The notes: generated by a model not told the origin, from the sequence alone. A DNA stretch of 63,885 nucleotides, filler included, from Candidatus Nanoarchaeia archaeon (GCA_035290625.1; 5 parts of 4 records of this genome joined end to end with filler, not necessarily neighbours in it); one strand, 5' to 3'; positions 1-61,550 are shown, counted from the first letter of the whole stretch. Translations and numbers: made by a program.

Positions 1-140
1 TCGCTCGGCAGCGCCAGGTTCGCCATGCGCAAGTCAGGCAGAATAGCGACATTCTCCGAGGGAGGCGACCCTCTTGTCGCTGTGCCGCCGCTCCGTTATA
101 ATGGCTTACAAGAGGGCGCTGCATGACTTTTCAATGCCAC
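1..140. repeat. Structured ~161-bp repeat family, copy A (5' end cut by window edge)
   Basis: Collinear with 26164-26326. Stems GCAGCGCC/GGCGCTGC, GCCAT/ATGGC and AGCGACA/TGTCGCT; ends in TIR CTTTTCAATGCCAC. Confidence 0.92.
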
Positions 141-6649: not shown

Positions 6650-6810
6650 GTCGCATTGAAAAGTCATGCAATGCCCTTTGTGAGCCTTCTATTCAAAGTA
6701 CAGAACAGCGACAAAGGGGTTGCTCCATACGGGAAATGTCGCTTCCCATGAGAGTATGCGCAAGGCGAAGTCGGCATTGCCGAACGAAGTGAGCAACTTT
6801 TCAATGCCAC
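6650..6810. repeat. Structured ~161-bp repeat family, copy B (opposite orientation to A, C, D)
   Basis: TIRs GTCGCATTGAAAAGT / ACTTTTCAATGCCAC; stems GCAATGCC/GGCATTGC, GCCTT/AAGGC, AGCGACA/TGTCGCT. Confidence 0.92.
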
Positions 6811-12451: not shown

Positions 12452-13392
12452 AATGGGTTCATGCCCTTATGCGAATCGGGTTTGGAGTTGCTATCCTTGC
12501 TGCTTTGTTCTATACTGTCGGGATTAAGGAGGTTATTAACCATCTTGGCCAGGCTAATGTATTGGTTGTTGTGCTTGCTGTCACCTTTTTCGGCCTCGGG
12601 ATGCTCATCGGAGCAGGGAATTTCATGATGCTGGCGTGGCCGGTGAATAATAAGATTAGGTATCTTGAGTTTGTCAGAATCTTTTCCCTAAGCTGGGCGA
12701 TAAGCCTGTTCCTGCCTTCAAGGATTGGAGAGCTTTCCCTTATTTACTATCTGAAGAAGGAAGGGATAGAGATGGGCAAGGCTGCGGCATTATTTTTGAT
12801 TGATAAGATGATTACGACTGCGATCATTGTTACGCTTGCCGTGTTTGGATTCTTCTTGTTCTTTCCTGAGACGAATGCTGCATTCACAGTCTTGCTTATT
12901 CTGTTAGGAGCCGGGATTTTAGGGCTGTTGGTTTTTCTTGAGCCTGTAAGAATGTTCACCCGAAGACACGTCTTGAGGTCTTATGCAGGCAGGTTTGACA
13001 AATTTCTAGATACGTTTATTTACTATGTGAAGAATCACAAGGCAAGGCTGTCTTTGAATTTCTGCATTTCAGTCGTCAAGTGGTTTGTTCTGACGTGGTT
13101 CATGTGGTTTTTGTTTAAGAGCATTGGCGTTTCTCTGGATCTTTTTACTTTGATGGAAATCCAGGCGATGCTTGTGATCGTTGCTTTGGTTCCTATCACG
13201 TTAAATGGACTCGGGGTCAGGGAATCTGCAGGGGTCTTTCTGTATTCTCAAGTAGGGGTGAATGCTGAGGCTGCCGCTGCTTTCTTTCTTCTTTTGCTGA
13301 TATTGAACTATATCATTGCAAGCCTGATATTTCTGTTCTTTTGGGGAAGGGTTAAGGAGCATGTGAAGGCTGCTGGAGAGGAGTCGCAATGA
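12448..13392 (+). CDS. Lysylphosphatidylglycerol synthase TM-domain / UPF0104 flippase-like protein
   Basis: LPSRIGE and PITLNGLGVRE motifs, multi-TM; its TGA stop lies within repeat copy C. Confidence 0.85.
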   Translation: MKWVHALMRIGFGVAILAALFYTVGIKEVINHLGQANVLVVVLAVTFFGLGMLIGAGNFMMLAWPVNNKIRYLEFVRIFSLSWAISLFLPSRIGELSLIYYLKKEGIEMGKAAALFLIDKMITTAIIVTLAVFGFFLFFPETNAAFTVLLILLGAGILGLLVFLEPVRMFTRRHVLRSYAGRFDKFLDTFIYYVKNHKARLSLNFCISVVKWFVLTWFMWFLFKSIGVSLDLFTLMEIQAMLVIVALVPITLNGLGVRESAGVFLYSQVGVNAEAAAAFFLLLLILNYIIASLIFLFFWGRVKEHVKAAGEESQ

Positions 13393-13543
13393 AAAGTTGC
13401 TCACTTCGTTCGGCAACGCCTAGTTCGCCATGTACTGTTTCGGCTGTTGAACGACATTCCCCGTATGGGGCGTCCCCCTTGTCGTTGCTCTGCTCTCTGT
13501 TTAAATGGCTCACGGATGGCGTTGCATCGCTTTTCATTGCGAC
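13383..13543. repeat. Structured ~161-bp repeat family, copy C
   Basis: TIRs GTCGCAATGAAAAG / CTTTTCATTGCGAC; stems GCAACGCC/GGCGTTGC, GCCAT/ATGGC, AACGACA/TGTCGTT. Confidence 0.92.
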
Positions 13544-20766: not shown

Positions 20767-20866
20767 NNNNNNNNNNNNNNNNNNNNNNNNNNNNNNNNNN
20801 NNNNNNNNNNTTAATTAATTAANNNNNNNNNNNNNNNNNNNNNNNNNNNNNNNNNNNNNNNNNNNN
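20767..20866. other. Artificial contig linker
   Basis: N44-TTAATTAATTAA-N44. Confidence 0.99.
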
Positions 20867-24369: not shown

Positions 24370-24826
24370 GTTTCCTTGCTTTATTGACTGTATTCCAGAT
24401 GTTTCTCTGATCCCTGTGCAGGAGTTTAGCAATCTGATGATAGGGAAGGTGGCTGAGCTCAAGTGAAATCGATTCGAGAGGCGAAAGATTTCTTTTTGCC
24501 AAGGCTTTCAAAGGAATTCCAGCTTCTCCTTTAATCCTGAATCTGGAAGGATGTTTTCGCTTTGCAGCTGTAAAGGAAGCCCATATCGTGCGTGGGTTGC
24601 GGTTCAGCTTTCTTGCAATGGATGAGAAACTCTCGGCTTTCTGCTCGTGAAGGTATTTTACTGCAGCTTCAAGAATGCCGAGCTTTGAGGTGAAGATATC
24701 AACTGGAAGCATGTCTTCTTCAAAGAATGAGAGCAACTCTTCCCTTGAGATTGAGCCAGAGGCTTTCAGGCTCTTTACCAATGAACTGAGGGCTCTCTTC
24801 AGCTCTGCCTGAGATTTCTTTTGCAC
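24353..24826 (-). CDS. Tandem-HTH DNA-binding protein
   Basis: Internal duplication ILEAAVKYL..SIARKLNRNPRTIW / PLESISLEL..QIAKLLHRDQRNIW; overlaps start of the surface-protein gene. Confidence 0.7.
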   Translation of the reverse strand: MQKKSQAELKRALSSLVKSLKASGSISREELLSFFEEDMLPVDIFTSKLGILEAAVKYLHEQKAESFSSIARKLNRNPRTIWASFTAAKRKHPSRFRIKGEAGIPLKALAKRNLSPLESISLELSHLPYHQIAKLLHRDQRNIWNTVNKARKHEKRA

Positions 24827-25027
24827 AGTACTCTCTTCTTGCCCTTATGCCTTATAAACCTTGCTATTTTAAACTTATCTTTCATGTAGAATTACCTATT
24901 ATTAATGTAATAATACTTATTAAAAATGTATATTAGTTATTTTATTACTTATCTTTAATGTAACTTCCCTACTGTAGGAGAATGATGAATAAGAACCAGA
25001 AATACTTGGGCCTGTTTGGAGGCCGGC

Positions 25028-26125
25028 TCATATCAGATGAATCTCAAGAACATCTGTATCTTTCAACACCGTGTCCAGCCTCAAAATCTTCTGGCCAGGA
25101 AACTTTGCGGTTGGGCCCCAGAGCCTTGCAAACTTGAACTTGGACTCAAACTCCCTATGGAGCTTTCTGCAGACATCCCTGATTGTGCATCCATGCGTCA
25201 TGATCAAAGGCTCTTCCATATCAGGCTTCTTGCCAGGCTCCTTCATATACATCCTTATGAAGTTTAGTTTCCTGAATATGGCCTCTTTTAGCTGTTCGAT
25301 GTTGATCCCTTTCTCCGCCGACACCAGGATATCGGCTTTAACATCCCTGGCAACAGCCTTTGCTTTCTCAGGATCAACCATGTCAATCTTGTTGACCACA
25401 GTTATTGCAGGAAGATAGATGCGGTTATCTTCGATGCAGTCAATCAACTGGTCATCACTAATATCTTCCCGAATAACAACCTCTGCGTTCATAATCCCCA
25501 TCTCTTTCATAATCCCCTGTATTGTGGCGTCTGTAAGGGTGAGCTTCTTTACTGTCTTGCCGATGCGAATCCCTCCCCGGGCAGTCTTCTTGATCTTGAC
25601 GTCAGGCCTTTTCTGGTTGATCCGGATCCCTGATTCAAATATCTCCCTGATCAGAACATTCAGGTGATCCTGGCTGTTGACATCTATAAGGATAATAACC
25701 AGGTTTGCGCTGCGCATGACGGCAAGGACCTCTTTTCCCCTGCCTGTACCTGCAGCAGCGCCTTTCACAATTCCAGGAACGTCAAGGATCTGGATTTTTG
25801 CGCCTTTATGCTCCAATAACCCCGGGATCACTGTAAGCGTGGTGAACGCGTACGCGGCTGTCTTGGATTCCTGATTGGTGAGCTTATTCAGAAGCGTGGA
25901 TTTTCCGACTGAAGGGTAACCGAGGATGACTGCTGAAGCGTCTCCGGTTTTCCTCACGTCATAGCTGTAGGTCTTCCCTTTTCCTGCAGCCCTGCTTTGC
26001 TCCTTATCGCGCAATGCTGCAATCTTTGCCTTTACTAAACCAACGTGATGCTGCGTCTTTTTATTGTATTTTGTCTTTTTGAGCTCTTCCTCAAACTCCC
26101 TTATCTTTGAGTTGTACTCAGGCAT
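25028..26125 (-). CDS. DRG/Rbg-family OBG GTPase with TGS domain
   Basis: NKKTQHH.G.VKAK, GYPSVGKST, YAFTT, DVPG, NKID; start MPEYNS at 26125 because the ORF-track extension runs into repeat D. Confidence 0.95.
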   Translation of the reverse strand: MPEYNSKIREFEEELKKTKYNKKTQHHVGLVKAKIAALRDKEQSRAAGKGKTYSYDVRKTGDASAVILGYPSVGKSTLLNKLTNQESKTAAYAFTTLTVIPGLLEHKGAKIQILDVPGIVKGAAAGTGRGKEVLAVMRSANLVIILIDVNSQDHLNVLIREIFESGIRINQKRPDVKIKKTARGGIRIGKTVKKLTLTDATIQGIMKEMGIMNAEVVIREDISDDQLIDCIEDNRIYLPAITVVNKIDMVDPEKAKAVARDVKADILVSAEKGINIEQLKEAIFRKLNFIRMYMKEPGKKPDMEEPLIMTHGCTIRDVCRKLHREFESKFKFARLWGPTAKFPGQKILRLDTVLKDTDVLEIHLI

Positions 26126-26163
26126 GGACTGAAAGGAAAGATGCGGATTTAATAAGGTTGTGG

Positions 26164-26326
26164 GTCGCATTGAAAAGTTGCTCGCTTCGCTCGGCAGCGC
26201 CATGTTCGCCATGCGCAAGTCAGGCAGAACAGCGACATTCCCCGAAGGGGGCAACCCCCCTTGTCGCTCTGCTGTCTTATTTTAAGATGGCTCACGAGAG
26301 GGCGCTGCATGACTTTTCAATGCGAC
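26164..26326. repeat. Structured repeat family, copy D (MITE-like, flanked by 10-bp direct repeat)
   Basis: Perfect 15-bp TIR GTCGCATTGAAAAGT/ACTTTTCAATGCGAC; AAGGTTGTGG at 26154-26163 and 26327-26336. Confidence 0.93.
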
Positions 26327-26372
26327 AAGGTTGTGGAAAGGTTTATAATTCACGGAGCAACCATCACCTTGT

Positions 26373-27098
26373 ATGCCAAATCAAAAAATCATCGTTGTCA
26401 TGCCTGCATACAATGCAAGCAGCACCATTGGAAGTGTTTTAGAACGAATCCCTCCTTCTCTGATGAAGAATCTCTTCCAAATCATCATAGTCAATGATGG
26501 AAGCGCTGATGATACTGGAATCGTCATAGAAGGATTGAAGGAGACATACAAAAAAATAAGGATACTGACGCATCCAAAAAATAAGGGATACGGAGCTGCA
26601 CAGAAGACTGGGTTTGAGGAAGCTGTGAAGGAAGGGGCTGATATTGGCGTGCTGCTGCATTCTGACGGCCAATATGCGCCGGAGATCATGCACACCTTGC
26701 TTGATCCATTTGAGCATGGATATGATGTTGTGCAGGGAAGCAGGATGCTTGCAGGAGGTGCAATTAAGGGAGGGATGCCGCTCTACAAATATCTTGGCAA
26801 TAAGTTCTTGACCTTTCTCGAGAATCTCGCCTATGGGCTCAATATGGCTGAGTATCACTCGGGGTATATGCTCTATTCAAAGAGGGCATTGGAAAATATC
26901 CCTTTTGAGAAATTAAGCAACACCTTCCATTTTGACGGAGAGATGCTGCTCATGGCTGCAAAGAAGAAGCTTAGGGTTAAGGAGATTCCGATCCCAACGC
27001 GCTACTCAACTGAGAAGAGCCATCTCAATCCCTTTACATACGGAATTGATGTCCTGAAGATTATCTACCGCAACTGGAGAGGGAAATACGATTTCTGA
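26373..27098 (+). CDS. GT2 glycosyltransferase
   Basis: MPAYNA, VNDGSAD, NKGYGAAQK, HSDGQY, GSR. Confidence 0.93.
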   Translation: MPNQKIIVVMPAYNASSTIGSVLERIPPSLMKNLFQIIIVNDGSADDTGIVIEGLKETYKKIRILTHPKNKGYGAAQKTGFEEAVKEGADIGVLLHSDGQYAPEIMHTLLDPFEHGYDVVQGSRMLAGGAIKGGMPLYKYLGNKFLTFLENLAYGLNMAEYHSGYMLYSKRALENIPFEKLSNTFHFDGEMLLMAAKKKLRVKEIPIPTRYSTEKSHLNPFTYGIDVLKIIYRNWRGKYDF

Positions 27099-27958
27099 TG
27101 AAATGGAAACTCGTTGTCAAGATTGCAGTCTCGGTGTTGTTGTTCCTGTTCTTTCTCACTTGGGTCGATGTGTTTACTGCATTTCAGACAGTTTCTGTCA
27201 CGTGGGGCTGGTTTTTTTTGGGATTGATCGTCTTACTTCTTTCCCAATTCCTGAAGGCCGTCAGATTTGGCATGCTGAGCAATAAGGCAGGCATTGTCCG
27301 ACCGTATTTTACGCATTTCTTGATACATAATGTTGTGACCTCATTTGGTTTAGTGACTCCGGGAAAGCTAGGAGAAGGAGGAAAGCTCTTCTATTACAAA
27401 GATGCTGACAAGAAGGCGCTTGGTGTTTGTTATATTCTGGAGAAATTCTCTGATTCTGTTGTTTTTGTTGTTTTCTCGTTGTTTTTGCTGGCTGCTTTGA
27501 ATCTTAAATTTCTTATTTTTGTTCTATTGGGCGTATTGAGCATCCTCGTTCTTGGAATTTTCTTTTTAAAGCCATTGATCACAAGGTTTTTTCCTCAATT
27601 TGATGTACATCTACTCAGAATATTCAGTATTAGCAATTTTTTAATGCTGGGAGGCCAGGCATTGCTTATCTGGCTTGCGGTTTTTTTTACGCAATACCTC
27701 TTTGCATTTGCTGTCGGGCTTGAGGCTCCTTTCTTTCTGTTTTGCCAGATCATGGCAGCTTCCTCTCTGCTCGGGATATTGAGCGGCCTGCCTGGAGGGG
27801 TTGGAAGCAGGGAGCTGACCCTAACCTTTTTATTTACCACACTATTAGCATCTGATAAAGGGATTGTTGGAGCATTTGCCATTGTGAATCTTTTTGGACA
27901 GTATACCGTGCTGGGGATACTGGCATTTGCTTCCCATTTGATGCTGAAAAGGAGATGA
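27098..27958 (+). CDS. LPG-synthase TM-domain / UPF0104 flippase-like protein
   Basis: TPGKLGE, LPGGVGSRE, multi-TM. Confidence 0.85.
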   Translation: MKWKLVVKIAVSVLLFLFFLTWVDVFTAFQTVSVTWGWFFLGLIVLLLSQFLKAVRFGMLSNKAGIVRPYFTHFLIHNVVTSFGLVTPGKLGEGGKLFYYKDADKKALGVCYILEKFSDSVVFVVFSLFLLAALNLKFLIFVLLGVLSILVLGIFFLKPLITRFFPQFDVHLLRIFSISNFLMLGGQALLIWLAVFFTQYLFAFAVGLEAPFFLFCQIMAASSLLGILSGLPGGVGSRELTLTFLFTTLLASDKGIVGAFAIVNLFGQYTVLGILAFASHLMLKRR

Positions 27959-27961
27959 ACT

Positions 27962-28585
27962 ATGGCACTACAACTGGTCTTGAGCATCCTTGGAGCTCTC
28001 TTAATTATTGGCCTTTTTGCAGCATATCGCATCCTCAAAAAAACATCTGCGTCGATATCGCTTTTTAGATTGATTTGGGATTACTTCATCCTTGAGCCAA
28101 TTGTTTTTGTGTTTCGGTGGATACCCGGAGGGTGGGGCATTATCGCAAGGTATGGGCTCTATAAGCTCTTATTCAAGAAATTAGGGAAGCGCTGCATCAT
28201 CATGGAGGGAGTAAAAATCCTTTTCCCCGAGAACATGGAAGTAGGGGATAACTGCAGCATCAATGAGCACTGCTATTTCCATGCACGAGGGGGCATCAAG
28301 CTTGGAAACTGGGTCAGGCTTGGGCCAAACATCGGGTTTTTCACCTGGAATCATGGCCATTCTGATCCTGAGAAACCGATCAAGCAGCAGGGCTTTATCC
28401 TGAAGCCGATTGTGGTTGAGGACGATGTCTGGATTGGCAATAATGCAACTATTGTGCAGGGAGTCACGATTGGCAAGCATTCCATTGTCGGAGCAGGGGC
28501 TGTTGTGACAAAAGATGTGGCTCCGTATTCCATCGTTGGAGGAGTGCCTGCAAAGGTGATAAAGGATAGAAGGGAAGCTAATTAA
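27962..28585 (+). CDS. Hexapeptide-repeat (LbH) O-acetyltransferase
   Basis: VEDDVWIG, GVTIG, GAGAVVTKDV, GGVPAK. Confidence 0.92.
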   Translation: MALQLVLSILGALLIIGLFAAYRILKKTSASISLFRLIWDYFILEPIVFVFRWIPGGWGIIARYGLYKLLFKKLGKRCIIMEGVKILFPENMEVGDNCSINEHCYFHARGGIKLGNWVRLGPNIGFFTWNHGHSDPEKPIKQQGFILKPIVVEDDVWIGNNATIVQGVTIGKHSIVGAGAVVTKDVAPYSIVGGVPAKVIKDRREAN

Positions 28586-37497: not shown

Positions 37498-37788
37498 ATG
37501 GCTGAAAAACGATACCACCTCATCATTTCAGGAAGAGTGCAGGGAGTGCTTTTTAGGTATAACTCAAAGCTGAAGGCTGACCGCTTAGGCATCTATGGCT
37601 GGGTGCAGAACATGAAGGACGGCTCTGTTGAAATCGTGTGCCAGGGAGAGGCTGGTAAGCTCCGTGAGTTTATTGATTGGTGCGGGAAAGGCCCGTTTTT
37701 AGCTAAAGTAAGGGGCATCAAGATAACAGAGGAAAGGGTTAAGAAGGAGTTTCAATCCTTCTCCATCCGATATGCGATAGTAGTATAA
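37498..37788 (+). CDS. acyP: Acylphosphatase
   Basis: SGRVQGVLFR, GWVQNMKDGSVE, GP..AKV; last 15 nt overlap tRNA-Gly. Confidence 0.92.
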   Translation: MAEKRYHLIISGRVQGVLFRYNSKLKADRLGIYGWVQNMKDGSVEIVCQGEAGKLREFIDWCGKGPFLAKVRGIKITEERVKKEFQSFSIRYAIVV

Positions 37789-37875
37789 AGGCCAGTATAC
37801 AACGTTGCCAATAGCAGAACTCTGTATTTGCTACGTAAAGACGTTGGGATCCGGGTTCGATTCCCGGCTATCGCA
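37774..37875 (+). tRNA. tRNA-Gly(GCC) with canonical intron 37811-37840
   Basis: Acceptor GCGATAG/CTATCGC, anticodon stem CAACG/CGTTG, T-arm CCGGG-TTCGATT-CCCGG; BHB TTGC/GTAA. Confidence 0.93.
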
Positions 37876-52283: not shown

Positions 52284-52383
52284 NNNNNNNNNNNNNNNNN
52301 NNNNNNNNNNNNNNNNNNNNNNNNNNNTTAATTAATTAANNNNNNNNNNNNNNNNNNNNNNNNNNNNNNNNNNNNNNNNNNNN
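52284..52383. other. Artificial contig linker
   Basis: N44-TTAATTAATTAA-N44. Confidence 0.99.
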
Positions 52384-53242: not shown

Positions 53243-53405
53243 GGCGGCATTGGGAAGATATGCAGCGGCCTTTGTGAGGTCATGATAAGAAGATAAGCGC
53301 ATCGACAAGGGAGTTGCCCCCTACGGGGAATGTCGATATAAAGAGAGGAAAGCCCGAACCGAACCTGCCGCTGCCGAGCAACACGTGCGTCTTTTCAACC
53401 CCTCC
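53243..53405. repeat. Structured repeat family, copy E (most diverged, same orientation as B)
   Basis: TTGGGAAGA/TCTTTTCAA (with G-T pairs), GCAGCGGC/GCCGCTGC, GGT/ACC, ATCGACA/TGTCGAT, CCCC-TAC-GGGG. Confidence 0.85.
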
Positions 53406-56390: not shown

Positions 56391-56490
56391 NNNNNNNNNN
56401 NNNNNNNNNNNNNNNNNNNNNNNNNNNNNNNNNNTTAATTAATTAANNNNNNNNNNNNNNNNNNNNNNNNNNNNNNNNNNNNNNNNNNNN
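56391..56490. other. Artificial contig linker
   Basis: N44-TTAATTAATTAA-N44. Confidence 0.99.
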
Positions 56491-61450: not shown

Positions 61451-61550
61451 NNNNNNNNNNNNNNNNNNNNNNNNNNNNNNNNNNNNNNNNNNNNTTAATT
61501 AATTAANNNNNNNNNNNNNNNNNNNNNNNNNNNNNNNNNNNNNNNNNNNN
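61451..61550. other. Artificial contig linker
   Basis: N44-TTAATTAATTAA-N44. Confidence 0.99.

What the first reader, a model, noticed from the sequence alone, without database searches (positions are those of the whole stretch)
26213..26286. Two fixed-length hypervariable 18-nt strands in the repeat's internal loop: candidate guide-like cargo
Seen (A/C/D orientation): between P3 and P4 each copy has two largely unpaired segments of constant length and mostly different sequence. D: GCGCAAGTCAGGCAGAAC / CTGCTGTCTTATTTTAAG. A: GCGCAAGTCAGGCAGAAT / GTGCCGCCGCTCCGTTATA (19). C: GTACTGTTTCGGCTGTTG / GCTCTGCTCTCTGTTTAA. B: GCGCATACTCTCATGGGA / GTTCTGTACTTTGAATAG. E (plus strand as written): TGATAAGAAGATAAGCGC / ATAAAGAGAGGAAAGCCC. 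A and D share one arm almost exactly but differ in the other, so the arms vary independently. Established: a constant scaffold with bipartite variable loop is the architecture of H/ACA pockets, C/D guides and IS110 bridge-RNA loops. Inference: possibly an undescribed programmable guide system, or simply length-constrained spacers. No cognate effector is identifiable in this window.
Basis: partly seen in the sequence, partly recalled or inferred. Interest (0 to 1): 0.88.

Follow-up and report, generated by a model that had tools for sequence, protein, structure and literature searches.

The report
Variable spacer loop inside archaeal mini-transposon
The two variable 18-base strands are real, but they are length-fixed spacer strands inside a hairpin-shaped miniature transposon of a tiny groundwater archaeon, and nothing tested supports the idea that they are programmable guides.

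Summary
Observation confirmed. Window 26213-26230 and 26269-26286 are the two sides of a symmetric internal loop between helices P3 and P4 of a 163-nt repeat. The repeat has 173 loci in this 1.37-Mb DPANN-type genome.

- **Length and sequence:** both strands stay near 18 nt in 131 of 132 own copies and in 32 of 32 copies from 28 other genomes. Their sequence is almost free, at 0-0.5 bit for most columns.
- **Mobility:** three metagenome runs carry the empty site exactly. The skip is 173 nt, of which 10 nt fit both sides.
- **Family:** inverted ends and 8-9-bp target duplications point to an IS5-family origin. A 905-bp IS5-family element in a relative has a matching end. One intact IS5-like element lies in this genome.
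- **Target site:** copies sit at the upstream edge of TATA-box promoters.
- **Guide tests, all negative:** no excess match to flanks, own genome, rRNA or sampled tRNAs. No orientation bias. No IS110 or TnpB gene. No RNA run holds the locus.
- **Arm turnover:** arms diverge together with their scaffold and reassort like every other segment.

Best reading: length-constrained linker strands of a conserved fold. This scan has already found the same MITE superfamily on other DNA. The loop analysis and a possible triple-helix cap are new here.

The parts
26164..26326 (+). Copy D of the MITE, 163 nt (165 nt if the flanking G at 26163 and A at 26327 are counted as element ends).
   Evidence: Contigs in runs X1, X2 and X3 skip this stretch precisely.
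26154..26163 (.). Left copy of the target-site duplication, AAGGTTGTGG. It reads as an 8-bp duplication AGGTTGTG if the element ends are taken as GG...
   Evidence: The joint 26153->26327 has 10 letters that fit both sides. One search scores it as 8 bp.
26327..26336 (.). Right copy of the target-site duplication.
26164..26178 (+). P1 5' strand, the left terminal inverted repeat GTCGCATTGAAAAGT. It pairs with 26312-26326.
   Evidence: helix 1: 92.3% of cells paired, 13 of 16 pairs change on both sides.
26312..26326 (+). P1 3' strand, the right terminal inverted repeat ACTTTTCAATGCGAC.
26179..26193 (+). Junction between P1 and P2 with a small side hairpin (loop TTC). It exists on the 5' side only.
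   Evidence: helix 2; pair 21:27 is GC 51, AT 16, GT 9, TA 5, CG 2.
26194..26201 (+). P2 5' strand GCAGCGCC. It pairs with 26301-26308.
   Evidence: helix 3 (93.8% paired, 7 of 8 pairs change on both sides).
26204..26212 (+). P3 5' strand GTTCGCCAT, with a conserved TC/TC mismatch. It pairs with 26287-26295.
   Evidence: helix 4 (94.2% paired, 6 of 7 pairs change on both sides).
26213..26230 (+). 5' arm of the internal loop, 18 nt. Sequence is variable and length is constrained.
26231..26237 (+). P4 5' strand AGCGACA. It pairs with 26262-26268.
   Evidence: helix 5 (84.4% paired, 5 of 7 pairs change on both sides).
26238..26261 (+). Apical cap. It holds a 4-bp helix P5 (TCCC/GGGG) with a 5-nt loop, a short linker, and a second pyrimidine tract that mirrors the first. 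This is the most conserved part of the family.
   Evidence: helix 6.
26262..26268 (+). P4 3' strand TGTCGCT.
26269..26286 (+). 3' arm of the internal loop, 18 nt. Sequence is variable and length is constrained.
26287..26295 (+). P3 3' strand ATGGCTCAC.
26301..26308 (+). P2 3' strand GGCGCTGC.
26342..26349 (+). TATA-like box TTTATAAT of the downstream + strand gene (ATG at 26373). It lies 6 nt past the right duplication.
1..140 (+). Copy A, cut by the contig start. It has the same 5' arm type as D and a different 3' arm.
6651..6810 (-). Copy B.
13383..13543 (+). Copy C.
53247..53399 (-). Copy E. Coordinates are derived from the 18-mer match at 53283-53300.

Best explanation
The flagged stretch is the middle of one copy of a miniature inverted-repeat transposable element (MITE).

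**Shown here**
- The element has 15-16-bp inverted ends and 8-9-bp target duplications, with about 170 copies in the genome.
- An exact empty-site allele exists in other samples.
- Copies insert at the upstream edge of TATA-box promoters, in either orientation.
- An IS5-family insertion sequence in a relative carries nearly the same end sequence but none of the MITE interior.
- The interior is a conserved single-strand fold: rod P1-P3, a symmetric loop of about 18 x 18 nt, then a head made of P4 and a small capped hairpin.
- The two 18-nt strands are the sides of that loop. Selection holds their length and excludes insertions, but hardly constrains their letters.

**Inferred**
- The strands act as spacer or ruler strands that keep the head at a fixed distance from the terminal rod. 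They do not base-pair with a target.
- Their diversity comes from fast point substitution without indels, plus recombination among the many copies. Crossovers in the conserved stems on either side make each arm look like an exchangeable cassette.
- An IS5-family DDE transposase supplies movement by recognising the double-stranded ends.

**Unknown**
- What the fold is for, and whether it forms in DNA or in RNA.
For: **Mobility**
- In runs X1, X2 and X3 a contig at full flank depth (18.6, 17.5, 30) joins 26153 to 26327. It skips 173 nt, and 10 letters fit both sides. Run X9 contigs run from both flanks into the element.
- Of 21 copies with GG-start ends and an exact duplication of at least 7 bp, the duplication is 8 bp in 14, 9 bp in 5, 10 bp in 1 and 7 bp in 1.

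**Parent element**
- L079 holds a 905-bp insertion sequence with ends GGCTGCGTTGAAAA / TTTTCAACGCAGCC and a 276-aa open reading frame. The frame scores 148.9 bits on NF033579, IS5 family, cut-off 140.
- The MITE subfamily end here reads GGCTGCGTTCAAAATC.
- The MITE profile finds nothing in 30 transposase loci.
- The own genome has an intact 967-bp insertion sequence with 16-bp ends GGCTCGATTGCAAGTT.

**Length constraint**
- for the own genome.
- In 32 copies from 28 other genomes the 5' arm is 16-20 nt (18 in 14) and the 3' arm is 16-20 nt (18 in 15), with low information.
- Core matches occur in 47 of 151 genomes and 45 of 143 genera. The listed match lengths are mostly 109-120 nt, with two longer ones of 157 and 167 nt.

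**No cassette behaviour**
- Arm identity falls together with scaffold identity: 80-83% when the scaffold is at least 95% identical, and 39-48% when it is 80-85%.
- Pairs that share an arm have a mean scaffold identity of 0.91-0.92.
- Left and right stems correlate at 0.62. All other segment pairs, including core with stems, correlate at 0.26-0.33.

**No targets**
-.

**No strand preference**
- 68 vs 56 copies by orientation toward a promoter-facing gene.
- TATA-bearing flanks lie on the 3' side in 9 cases and on the 5' side in 12.
Against: - Predicted pairing between the two arms is lower than for shuffled arms: 0.22 vs 0.30 pairs per nt with RNA parameters (p 0.004) and 0.14 vs 0.20 with DNA parameters (p 0.001). 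The loop seems to be kept open, which a pure ruler does not need.
- Against shuffled or reversed arms, real arms had more near-matches in the genome: 19 and 17 of 65, against 9 and 6 shuffled and 2 and 1 reversed. This excess disappears only after hidden copies are removed and when ordinary intergenic words serve as the control.
- Targets outside this genome, such as host or virus, were not tested.
- No transcript data of any kind exist for this organism here, so an RNA role is untested rather than excluded.
- Why a transposon needs the head at a fixed distance is unexplained.
Confidence: 0.65

Rival explanations
1. The open loop is a landing pad. The two unpaired strands are bound without sequence preference by a protein, such as the transposase, a single-strand-binding protein or a chromatin protein, or they serve as an opening site. 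Under this reading both their length and their unpaired state are selected.
For: Inter-arm pairing is depleted relative to shuffled arms. Length is conserved across 28 other genomes. No insertions occur in the arms, while other sites take 33-80-nt modules.
Against: No candidate protein was identified. The depletion is modest. Overall predicted pairing of each arm equals that of shuffles (0.53 vs 0.55 and 0.50 vs 0.54).
Confidence: 0.2
2. Programmable guide. The element is transcribed and its two arms base-pair with target nucleic acids, as in bridge RNAs, H/ACA pockets or C/D guides.
For: The element has a constant scaffold and a bipartite variable loop of fixed length. The loop appears to be kept open. 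The genome encodes L7Ae, a Cbf5-type TruB protein and fibrillarin.
Against: - No excess complementarity to flanks, to the own genome, or to rRNA and sampled tRNAs.
- Arms are not conserved between genomes, as guides for conserved targets would be.
- The copy is a polymorphic insertion.
- There is no orientation bias.
- No IS110 or TnpB gene is present.
- The parent insertion sequence, which lacks arms, sits at the same kind of site.
- No Rfam family reaches its threshold.
Confidence: 0.06
3. Neutral relic. The arms are simply unconstrained remnants, and their equal length reflects shared descent rather than selection.
For: Arm information is near zero. Arm divergence tracks scaffold divergence.
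Against: Arm sequences are at random-level identity between subfamilies (0.37 and 0.41, against 0.66-0.75 for the scaffold). Yet lengths stay at 16-21 nt in 131 of 132 own copies and 32 of 32 foreign copies. Other unpaired parts vary widely: J1/2 is 1-18 nt, and large insertions occur in J2/3 and in the cap.
Confidence: 0.08

Closest known systems
MITEs derived from IS5-family insertion sequences (IS903 group)
   Same: Short and non-coding. Inverted ends beginning GG(C)T. Target duplications of 8-9 bp. Many copies. An end sequence shared with an IS5-family transposase-bearing element. The IS903 end sequence and its 9-bp duplication are recalled, not taken from a call.
   Different: The interior is not a deletion remnant of the parent. 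It is a conserved fold found with several different end types and across 45 of 143 genera sampled. It contains a fixed-length open loop. Insertion is at promoter edges.
Structured bacterial intergenic repeats (ERIC, Correia, RUP, BOX); recalled, not searched
   Same: Imperfect palindromes of 100-160 bp. Intergenic location. Conserved hairpin potential.
   Different: Archaeal host. IS5-type ends. A symmetric 18 x 18 loop and a capped head. No evidence here of transcript processing.
IS110 bridge RNA (PMC11208160; only the search listing and the start of the abstract were seen)
   Same: A structured scaffold with internal-loop strands of variable sequence, borne by a mobile element.
   Different: No IS110 recombinase in the genome. 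One loop rather than two. The arms do not match the flanks or the element ends. The element lacks any gene.
Archaeal H/ACA guide RNA (features recalled)
   Same: Lower stem, two-sided pocket, upper stem. A Cbf5-type gene is present.
   Different: The pocket is 18+18 nt. The would-be ACA is a covarying paired RCA. The RNA would continue into P2 and P1. The arms are not conserved, and rRNA shows no excess pairing.

Membership tests
MITE (non-autonomous DDE transposon) | Terminal inverted repeats | tested here: met
   P1 is 15-16 bp, and 92.3% of cells pair across 38 copies.
MITE (non-autonomous DDE transposon) | Target-site duplication of fixed length | tested here: met
   Copy D: 10 letters fit both sides. 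Of 21 copies, the duplication is 8 bp in 14 and 9 bp in 5. Many older copies show none.
MITE (non-autonomous DDE transposon) | Presence/absence polymorphism at a precise site | tested here: met
   Empty-site contigs in X1, X2 and X3; filled site in X9.
MITE (non-autonomous DDE transposon) | Small, multi-copy, no transposase gene | tested here: met
   163 nt; 173 loci. Only spurious reading frames cross it.
MITE of the IS5 family | Ends shared with an autonomous element that encodes an IS5-family transposase | tested here: met
   L079 is a 905-bp insertion sequence with ends GGCTGCGTTGAAAA and a frame scoring 148.9 bits on NF033579, cut-off 140. This matches the subfamily end GGCTGCGTTCAAAATC in this genome. 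For D's own subfamily (GGTSGCATTGAAAAGT) the nearest match is the own-genome insertion sequence GGCTCGATTGCAAGTT. That match is similar but unproven.
IS110 bridge RNA | Encoded beside an IS110 (DEDD) recombinase | tested here: not met
   PF01548: 0 matches in the genome, which is 100% complete by marker genes.
IS110 bridge RNA | Loop strands complementary to the target and to the element ends | tested here: not met
   Runs of 7 nt or more against own flanks: 5, 14, 9 and 8 of 75, against controls of 6.5-10.7%. The single excess (14) traces to mis-set ends of divergent subfamilies.
H/ACA guide RNA | Single-stranded ACA/ANA box right after the lower stem, at the 3' end | tested here: not met
   The candidate A-C is paired and covaries (42:130 is TA 68, CG 55), giving RCA. 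The element continues for about 30 nt beyond it.
H/ACA guide RNA | K-turn or K-loop in the upper stem | tested here: inconclusive
   No tandem G-A pairs were seen when reading P4 and the cap. No formal motif search was run.
H/ACA or C/D guide RNA | Guide strands complementary to rRNA or tRNA and conserved among relatives | tested here: not met
   Longest pairing runs average 11.0 and 11.5, against 10.7 and 11.0 for shuffled arms. The top hits are rich in G:U pairs. The arms are not conserved across genomes. Only 15 tRNAs were parsed.
C/D box sRNA | Boxes C (RUGAUGA) and D (CUGA) near the ends | tested here: not met
   Neither box is present in copy D as read. The Rfam sR17 hit scores 10.6 bits against a gathering score of 36, E 3.4.
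TnpB/IscB omega-RNA | Adjacent TnpB-type nuclease | tested here: not met
   PF07282: 0 matches in the genome.

The most novel reading that the evidence does not exclude
The conserved core (P3, an open 18 x 18 loop, P4, and a cap whose two pyrimidine tracts mirror each other around a purine tract) may be a functional single-stranded module that several transposon end types have picked up as cargo. Its loop strands would pair with variable partners outside this genome, such as the host cell or viruses of this episymbiont-type archaeon. That would make it a transposon-spread programmable RNA or DNA with a triple-helix cap.
Probability: 0.05. Interest if true: 0.85.

Novelty: new variant of a known kind. 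Interest (0 to 1): 0.35.

Why it matters
It removes a tempting false lead. A constant scaffold with two variable loop strands looks like a guide RNA. Here it belongs to a transposon, and it shows no targets and no known RNA-guided effector gene.

What remains interesting is narrower. This MITE superfamily is spread over about a third of the sampled genera of an archaeal order. It keeps an elaborate fold that its parent insertion sequence lacks, including an open loop of fixed length and a cap with triple-helix-like covariation. It also lands with near single-base precision at promoter edges.

If the fold is a cis-requirement for moving very short elements, it would say something general about how MITEs solve end synapsis. 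If the fold acts as RNA, these genomes carry over a hundred copies of an undescribed structured RNA next to their promoters.

Tried and rejected
- **RNA evidence:** no RNA holder is listed for window 25000-28000, so expression could not be examined.
- **Rfam:** only two tRNAs at gathering scores. Three chance-level hits over the element, E 1.9-4.6.
- **Viral contigs:** the core pattern has 0 matches. Single arms were not scanned there, because by my own rough estimate an 18-mer would match a collection of that size by chance.
- **First transposase found:** the only PF01609 match in the own genome (C61, 518-aa frame) has unrelated ends and was set aside. PF13737 gave no match.
- **MITE profile against 30 transposase loci of relatives:** no hit.
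- **Wobble test for strand or RNA:** G:T 202 against A:C 104 overall, but 107 of the G:T cells sit at two helix-end positions. P1 and P4 show no preference. Because copies decay neutrally after insertion, I do not use this to decide DNA versus RNA.
- **Long-range pairing of the second pyrimidine tract with junction J3/2:** fits copies A and B but not the other genomes. Dropped.
- **TATA-like or oligo-T signal in the 3' arm:** considered from reading the arms. Not consistent across subfamilies.
- **DGR-type hypermutation:** one reverse-transcriptase gene exists (C68, group-II-intron-like, 166.8 bits, below the cut-off of 300). No repeat pair lies beside it, so no link to the arms.
- **Transposase co-distribution:** in the first 150 relatives, 20 of 46 core-positive genomes and 37 of 104 core-negative genomes have a PF01609 match. 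This is my count, and the association is weak.

Full report
**What is at the coordinates.** Window 26213-26286 lies in the middle of a 163-nt repeat at 26164-26326. Reading the sequence gives six parts:
- P1: 26164-26178 with 26312-26326.
- A 5'-side junction with a small hairpin.
- P2: 26194-26201 with 26301-26308.
- P3: 26204-26212 with 26287-26295. It carries a conserved TC/TC mismatch.
- P4: 26231-26237 with 26262-26268.
- A 24-nt cap at 26238-26261.

The arms quoted for copies A, B, C and E are also correct.

The window is several contigs joined by N...TTAATTAATTAA...N linkers. Places 20867-52283 are contig C46 of a 1.37-Mb, 84-contig genome rated 100% complete. Earlier notes of this scan call the organism a groundwater DPANN / Woesearchaeota-type archaeon. 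I did not verify the name.

**Size of the family and reality of the fold.** Three rounds of nhmmer gave 203 hits, which collapse to 173 non-overlapping loci. Together they cover 25,304 nt, or 1.85% of the genome. Eighty-nine loci are near full length, at 132-255 nt.

I aligned 38 insert-free copies (A1) and tested a structure that I wrote from copy D:
- 89.5% of 1,713 cells pair, against 73.5% in 500 shuffles (0 of 500 reach the observed value).
- Only 34-43% pair when the partner is slid by 1-3 columns.
- 36 of 46 pairs show changes on both sides.

The structure came from one of the aligned sequences, which favours it somewhat against the slid controls. The double changes are not affected by that.

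**The observation about the arms.**
- In 132 of 134 aligned own copies with intact anchors, the 5' arm is 17-21 nt in 131 (18 nt in 101).
- The 3' arm is 16-20 nt in 131 (17 nt in 32, 18 in 63, 19 in 30).
- Neither arm holds a large insertion (0 of 132 each). Junction J2/3 holds 26 insertions of 33-47 nt, and the cap holds 10 of 52-80 nt. The J1/2 region ranges from 1 to 18 nt.
- A separate regular-expression parse caught 95 of 173 loci. It gave 17 or 18 nt for 84 of 95 5' arms and 17-19 nt for 93 of 95 3' arms. The 27-28-nt outliers were the J2/3 insert caught by the pattern.
- Among 83 clean copies there are 65 distinct 5' arms and 65 distinct 3' arms. Most arm columns carry 0-0.5 bit, with a few at 0.8-1.0 bit at the arm ends.

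I then built a covariance model of the P2-to-P2 core (114 positions). It matched 47 of 151 genomes of the same order, in 45 of 143 genera. The listed match lengths are mostly 109-120 nt, with two longer ones of 157 and 167 nt. That tally includes the own genome and one genome flagged unpublished, G131. No sequence from G131 is used below.

In 32 matches from 28 other genomes (A3), the 5' arm is 16-20 nt (18 in 14) and the 3' arm is 16-20 nt (18 in 15), again with almost no sequence conservation. A3 is fitted to the model, so arm borders may be off by a base. The overall spacing does not depend on that.

**What the element is.** Copy D is flanked by AAGGTTGTGG on both sides. I laid contigs of four public metagenome runs on window 24500-28000:
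- In X1, X2 and X3, a contig at the depth of the flanks (18.6, 17.5, 30) joins 26153 to 26327. It skips 173 nt, and 10 letters fit either side.
- In X9, contigs run from both flanks into the element.
- Depth over the element is 20-30 times that of the flanks, as expected for a repeat.

Copy D is therefore a polymorphic insertion with a target duplication.

Among 21 copies with GG-start ends and an exact duplication of at least 7 bp, the duplication is 8 bp in 14 and 9 bp in 5. Many other copies show no clean duplication.

The flanks show a striking target. Of 42 flanks of those 21 copies, 21 have a TATA-like hexamer within 8-30 nt. In 18 of those 21, the hexamer begins exactly 7 or 9 nt after the duplication, behind a GAAAC-like word. 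Nine lie on the element's 3' side and 12 on its 5' side. Copy D sits between two divergent promoters.

With crude gene calls, 131 of 173 loci are intergenic. Flanking genes are tandem in 62 cases, divergent in 31 and convergent in only 11. Orientation toward a promoter-facing gene is 68 against 56.

**The mobiliser.** The own genome has one PF01609 match, a 518-aa transposase with unrelated ends. Among 301 genomes of the order, 105 have PF01609 matches. In one locus, L079, a 905-bp insertion sequence has ends GGCTGCGTTGAAAA / TTTTCAACGCAGCC. These nearly equal the end of one MITE subfamily here, GGCTGCGTTCAAAATC. Its 276-aa frame scores 148.9 bits on NCBIfam NF033579, IS5 family transposase, cut-off 140.

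Inside its ends this insertion sequence has a TATA-like word, two small hairpins and the gene. None of the MITE interior is there, and the MITE profile finds nothing in 30 such loci. Its left flank carries a TATA-like word at about the same distance as at D (one case only).

Searching with that protein found a distant relative in the own genome, 26% identical. It lies in an intact 967-bp insertion sequence at C49:19040-20006 with perfect 16-bp ends GGCTCGATTGCAAGTT. That element also sits between two TATA-like words. Its frame scores 98.9 bits on NF033579, below the cut-off, and matches no Pfam family. Its ends resemble D's GGTCGCATTGAAAAGTT, but I cannot show that it moves D.

The similarity of these ends to IS903, and IS903's 9-bp duplication, are recalled knowledge.

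**Tests of the guide idea.**

1. *Flanks.* I measured the longest exact run between each arm and 64 nt of its own left and right flank, on either strand. Arms paired with other copies' flanks served as control. Runs of 7 nt or more occur in 5, 14, 9 and 8 of 75 copies, against control rates of 7.9, 6.5, 9.7 and 10.7%. The one excess (5' arm, complement) comes from matches scattered in position. Three copies of one divergent subfamily share the same internal site because my end estimate fell inside the element.

2. *Own genome.* Against shuffled or reversed arms, real arms had more near-matches of 2 mismatches or fewer: 19 and 17 of 65, against 9 and 6 shuffled, and 2 and 1 reversed. Reading the contexts showed that many hits are undetected copies of the repeat. 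The remaining hits are scattered in coding DNA on both strands. After wider masking, 16 of 65 and 11 of 65 arms have such a hit. Natural intergenic words of matched length have one in 89 of 260 and 61 of 260 cases. Arms therefore resemble the rest of the genome no more than ordinary sequence does.

3. *rRNA and tRNA.* 16S and 23S genes are in the assembly. The longest Watson-Crick or G:U runs of arms against 16S, 23S and 15 parsed tRNAs average 11.0 and 11.5. Shuffled arms average 10.7 and 11.0. The few runs of 14-16 contain 3-9 G:U pairs and are scattered.

4. *Effectors.* There is no IS110 recombinase and no TnpB-type domain. L7Ae, a Cbf5-type protein and fibrillarin are present, as in most archaea. 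The element lacks C/D boxes. Its would-be ACA is a paired, covarying RCA.

5. *Expression.* No RNA run is listed, so this remains untested.

**How the arms vary.** Arm identity follows scaffold identity:
- For 30 pairs with scaffolds at least 95% identical, arms are 80% and 83% identical.
- For 234 pairs with scaffolds 80-85% identical, arms are 39% and 48% identical, which is near the all-pairs level of 37% and 41%.
- Pairs that share an arm at 88% or more have scaffolds 0.91-0.92 identical on average.

Arms do reassort. Nine of 12 multi-copy 5' types occur with several 3' types. Among pairs with scaffolds at least 95% identical, 30% keep only one arm.

The cap reassorts just as freely. Correlations of pairwise identity are 0.62 between the left and right stems and 0.26-0.33 for every other pair of segments. 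This is the pattern of general recombination among many copies, with crossovers in the conserved stems. It is not the pattern of a dedicated arm-exchange mechanism.

Within one subfamily the 3' arms are alignable and differ by point changes without indels.

Predicted pairing of each arm equals that of shuffled arms. Pairing between the two arms is somewhat lower than shuffled: 0.22 vs 0.30 with RNA parameters and 0.14 vs 0.20 with DNA parameters. The arms are therefore not a decayed stem, and the loop may be kept open.

**Mechanism.** I commit to the following.
- *Shown:* the element is an IS5-type MITE. The arms are length-constrained, insertion-free and nearly sequence-free sides of a symmetric loop in a fold conserved across an order.
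- *Inferred:* they work as spacers that fix the distance between the terminal rod (P1-P3) and the head (P4 plus cap). Their diversity is drift plus recombination.

What the fold serves is open. The parent insertion sequence lacks it and both orientations are equally common. I therefore lean toward a cis role special to very short elements, or toward tolerance by the host. I do not lean toward a trans-acting RNA. A protein-binding open loop is the main rival.

**Side finding.** In the cap, the first pyrimidine tract pairs with the purine tract (P5). The second pyrimidine tract is the mirror image of the first. The three tracts change together in four variants:
- TCCC / GGGA / CCCT
- TTCC / GGAG / CCTT
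- TCTC / GAGA / CTCT
- CTCC / GGAA / CCTC

These are seen in own copies and in other genomes. A mirror copy is what a third strand lying parallel to the purines would need, forming C.G-C and T.A-T triples. It cannot be ordinary pairing.

In 45 distinct own caps, the third-strand base is T in 21 of 29 positions opposite A, and in 34 of 151 positions opposite G. In 11 parsed foreign caps the count gives no support (3 of 11 vs 7 of 33), and my parsing register is shaky. The number of independent changes is small. I rate this a lead, not a result.

**Known or new.** Full-text searches found only census-level mention: a 'Woesearchaea' genome with 105 MITEs per Mb in PMC11602168 (passages seen). A second search found reviews and the bridge-RNA paper (listing only). 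Neither search turned up a description of this fold, but two searches are not proof of absence.

This scan has reported the same MITE superfamily several times on other DNA of this and other genomes. Here I re-derived its main claims independently: MITE identity, IS5-type parent, promoter-edge landing and nested modules. The new parts are the loop analysis, the negative guide tests, the empty-site allele of copy D, the intact insertion sequence in this genome, and the triple-helix lead.

Noticed in passing
window 26238-26261, and the same segment of all copies: The cap has a pyrimidine tract, a purine tract and a second pyrimidine tract that mirrors the first. The three vary together in four variants, as a parallel triple helix would require.
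   Followed up: partly
G000:C49:19040-20006 (L124): An intact 967-bp IS5-like insertion sequence with perfect 16-bp ends GGCTCGATTGCAAGTT and a 284-aa frame. It lies between two divergent TATA-like words. It is a candidate mobiliser of the D-type MITE.
   Followed up: partly
flanks of 21 copies with clean duplications, e.g. window 26337-26349: A TATA-like hexamer begins exactly 7 or 9 nt after the target duplication in 18 flanks, behind a GAAAC-like word. Insertion is therefore at the upstream edge of promoters, on either side of the element.
   Followed up: yes
e.g. G000:C53:2177-2379 and G000:C43:30006-30222: There are two optional hairpin modules. A 43-nt module sits at junction J2/3 (27 BLAST hits in the genome). 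A 57-nt module sits in the cap linker (16 hits). Nearly all hits lie inside MITE copies, at the same two sites in different subfamilies.
   Followed up: partly
window 20767-20866, 52284-52383, 56391-56490, 61451-61550: N runs around TTAATTAATTAA. These are joints between contigs, not biology. Several contigs begin or end inside a repeat copy.
   Followed up: yes
G000:C61:265-1818 (L011): A 518-aa DDE transposase (PF01609) on a 2.3-kb contig. Its ends are unrelated to the MITE.
   Followed up: partly
G000:C68:37802-38884 (L133:1273-2355, minus strand): A 360-aa reverse transcriptase. Its best match is the group II intron RT/maturase family, at 166.8 bits against a cut-off of 300. It lies beside glycine-tRNA ligase, with no repeat pair nearby.
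   Followed up: partly
window 37774-37875: A tRNA match of 102 nt, long enough to hold an intron.
   Followed up: no
window 25077-25112: Runs X2 and X9 share three base differences from the window (A>G, G>A, T>A) in the gene upstream of copy D. This is strain variation.
   Followed up: no
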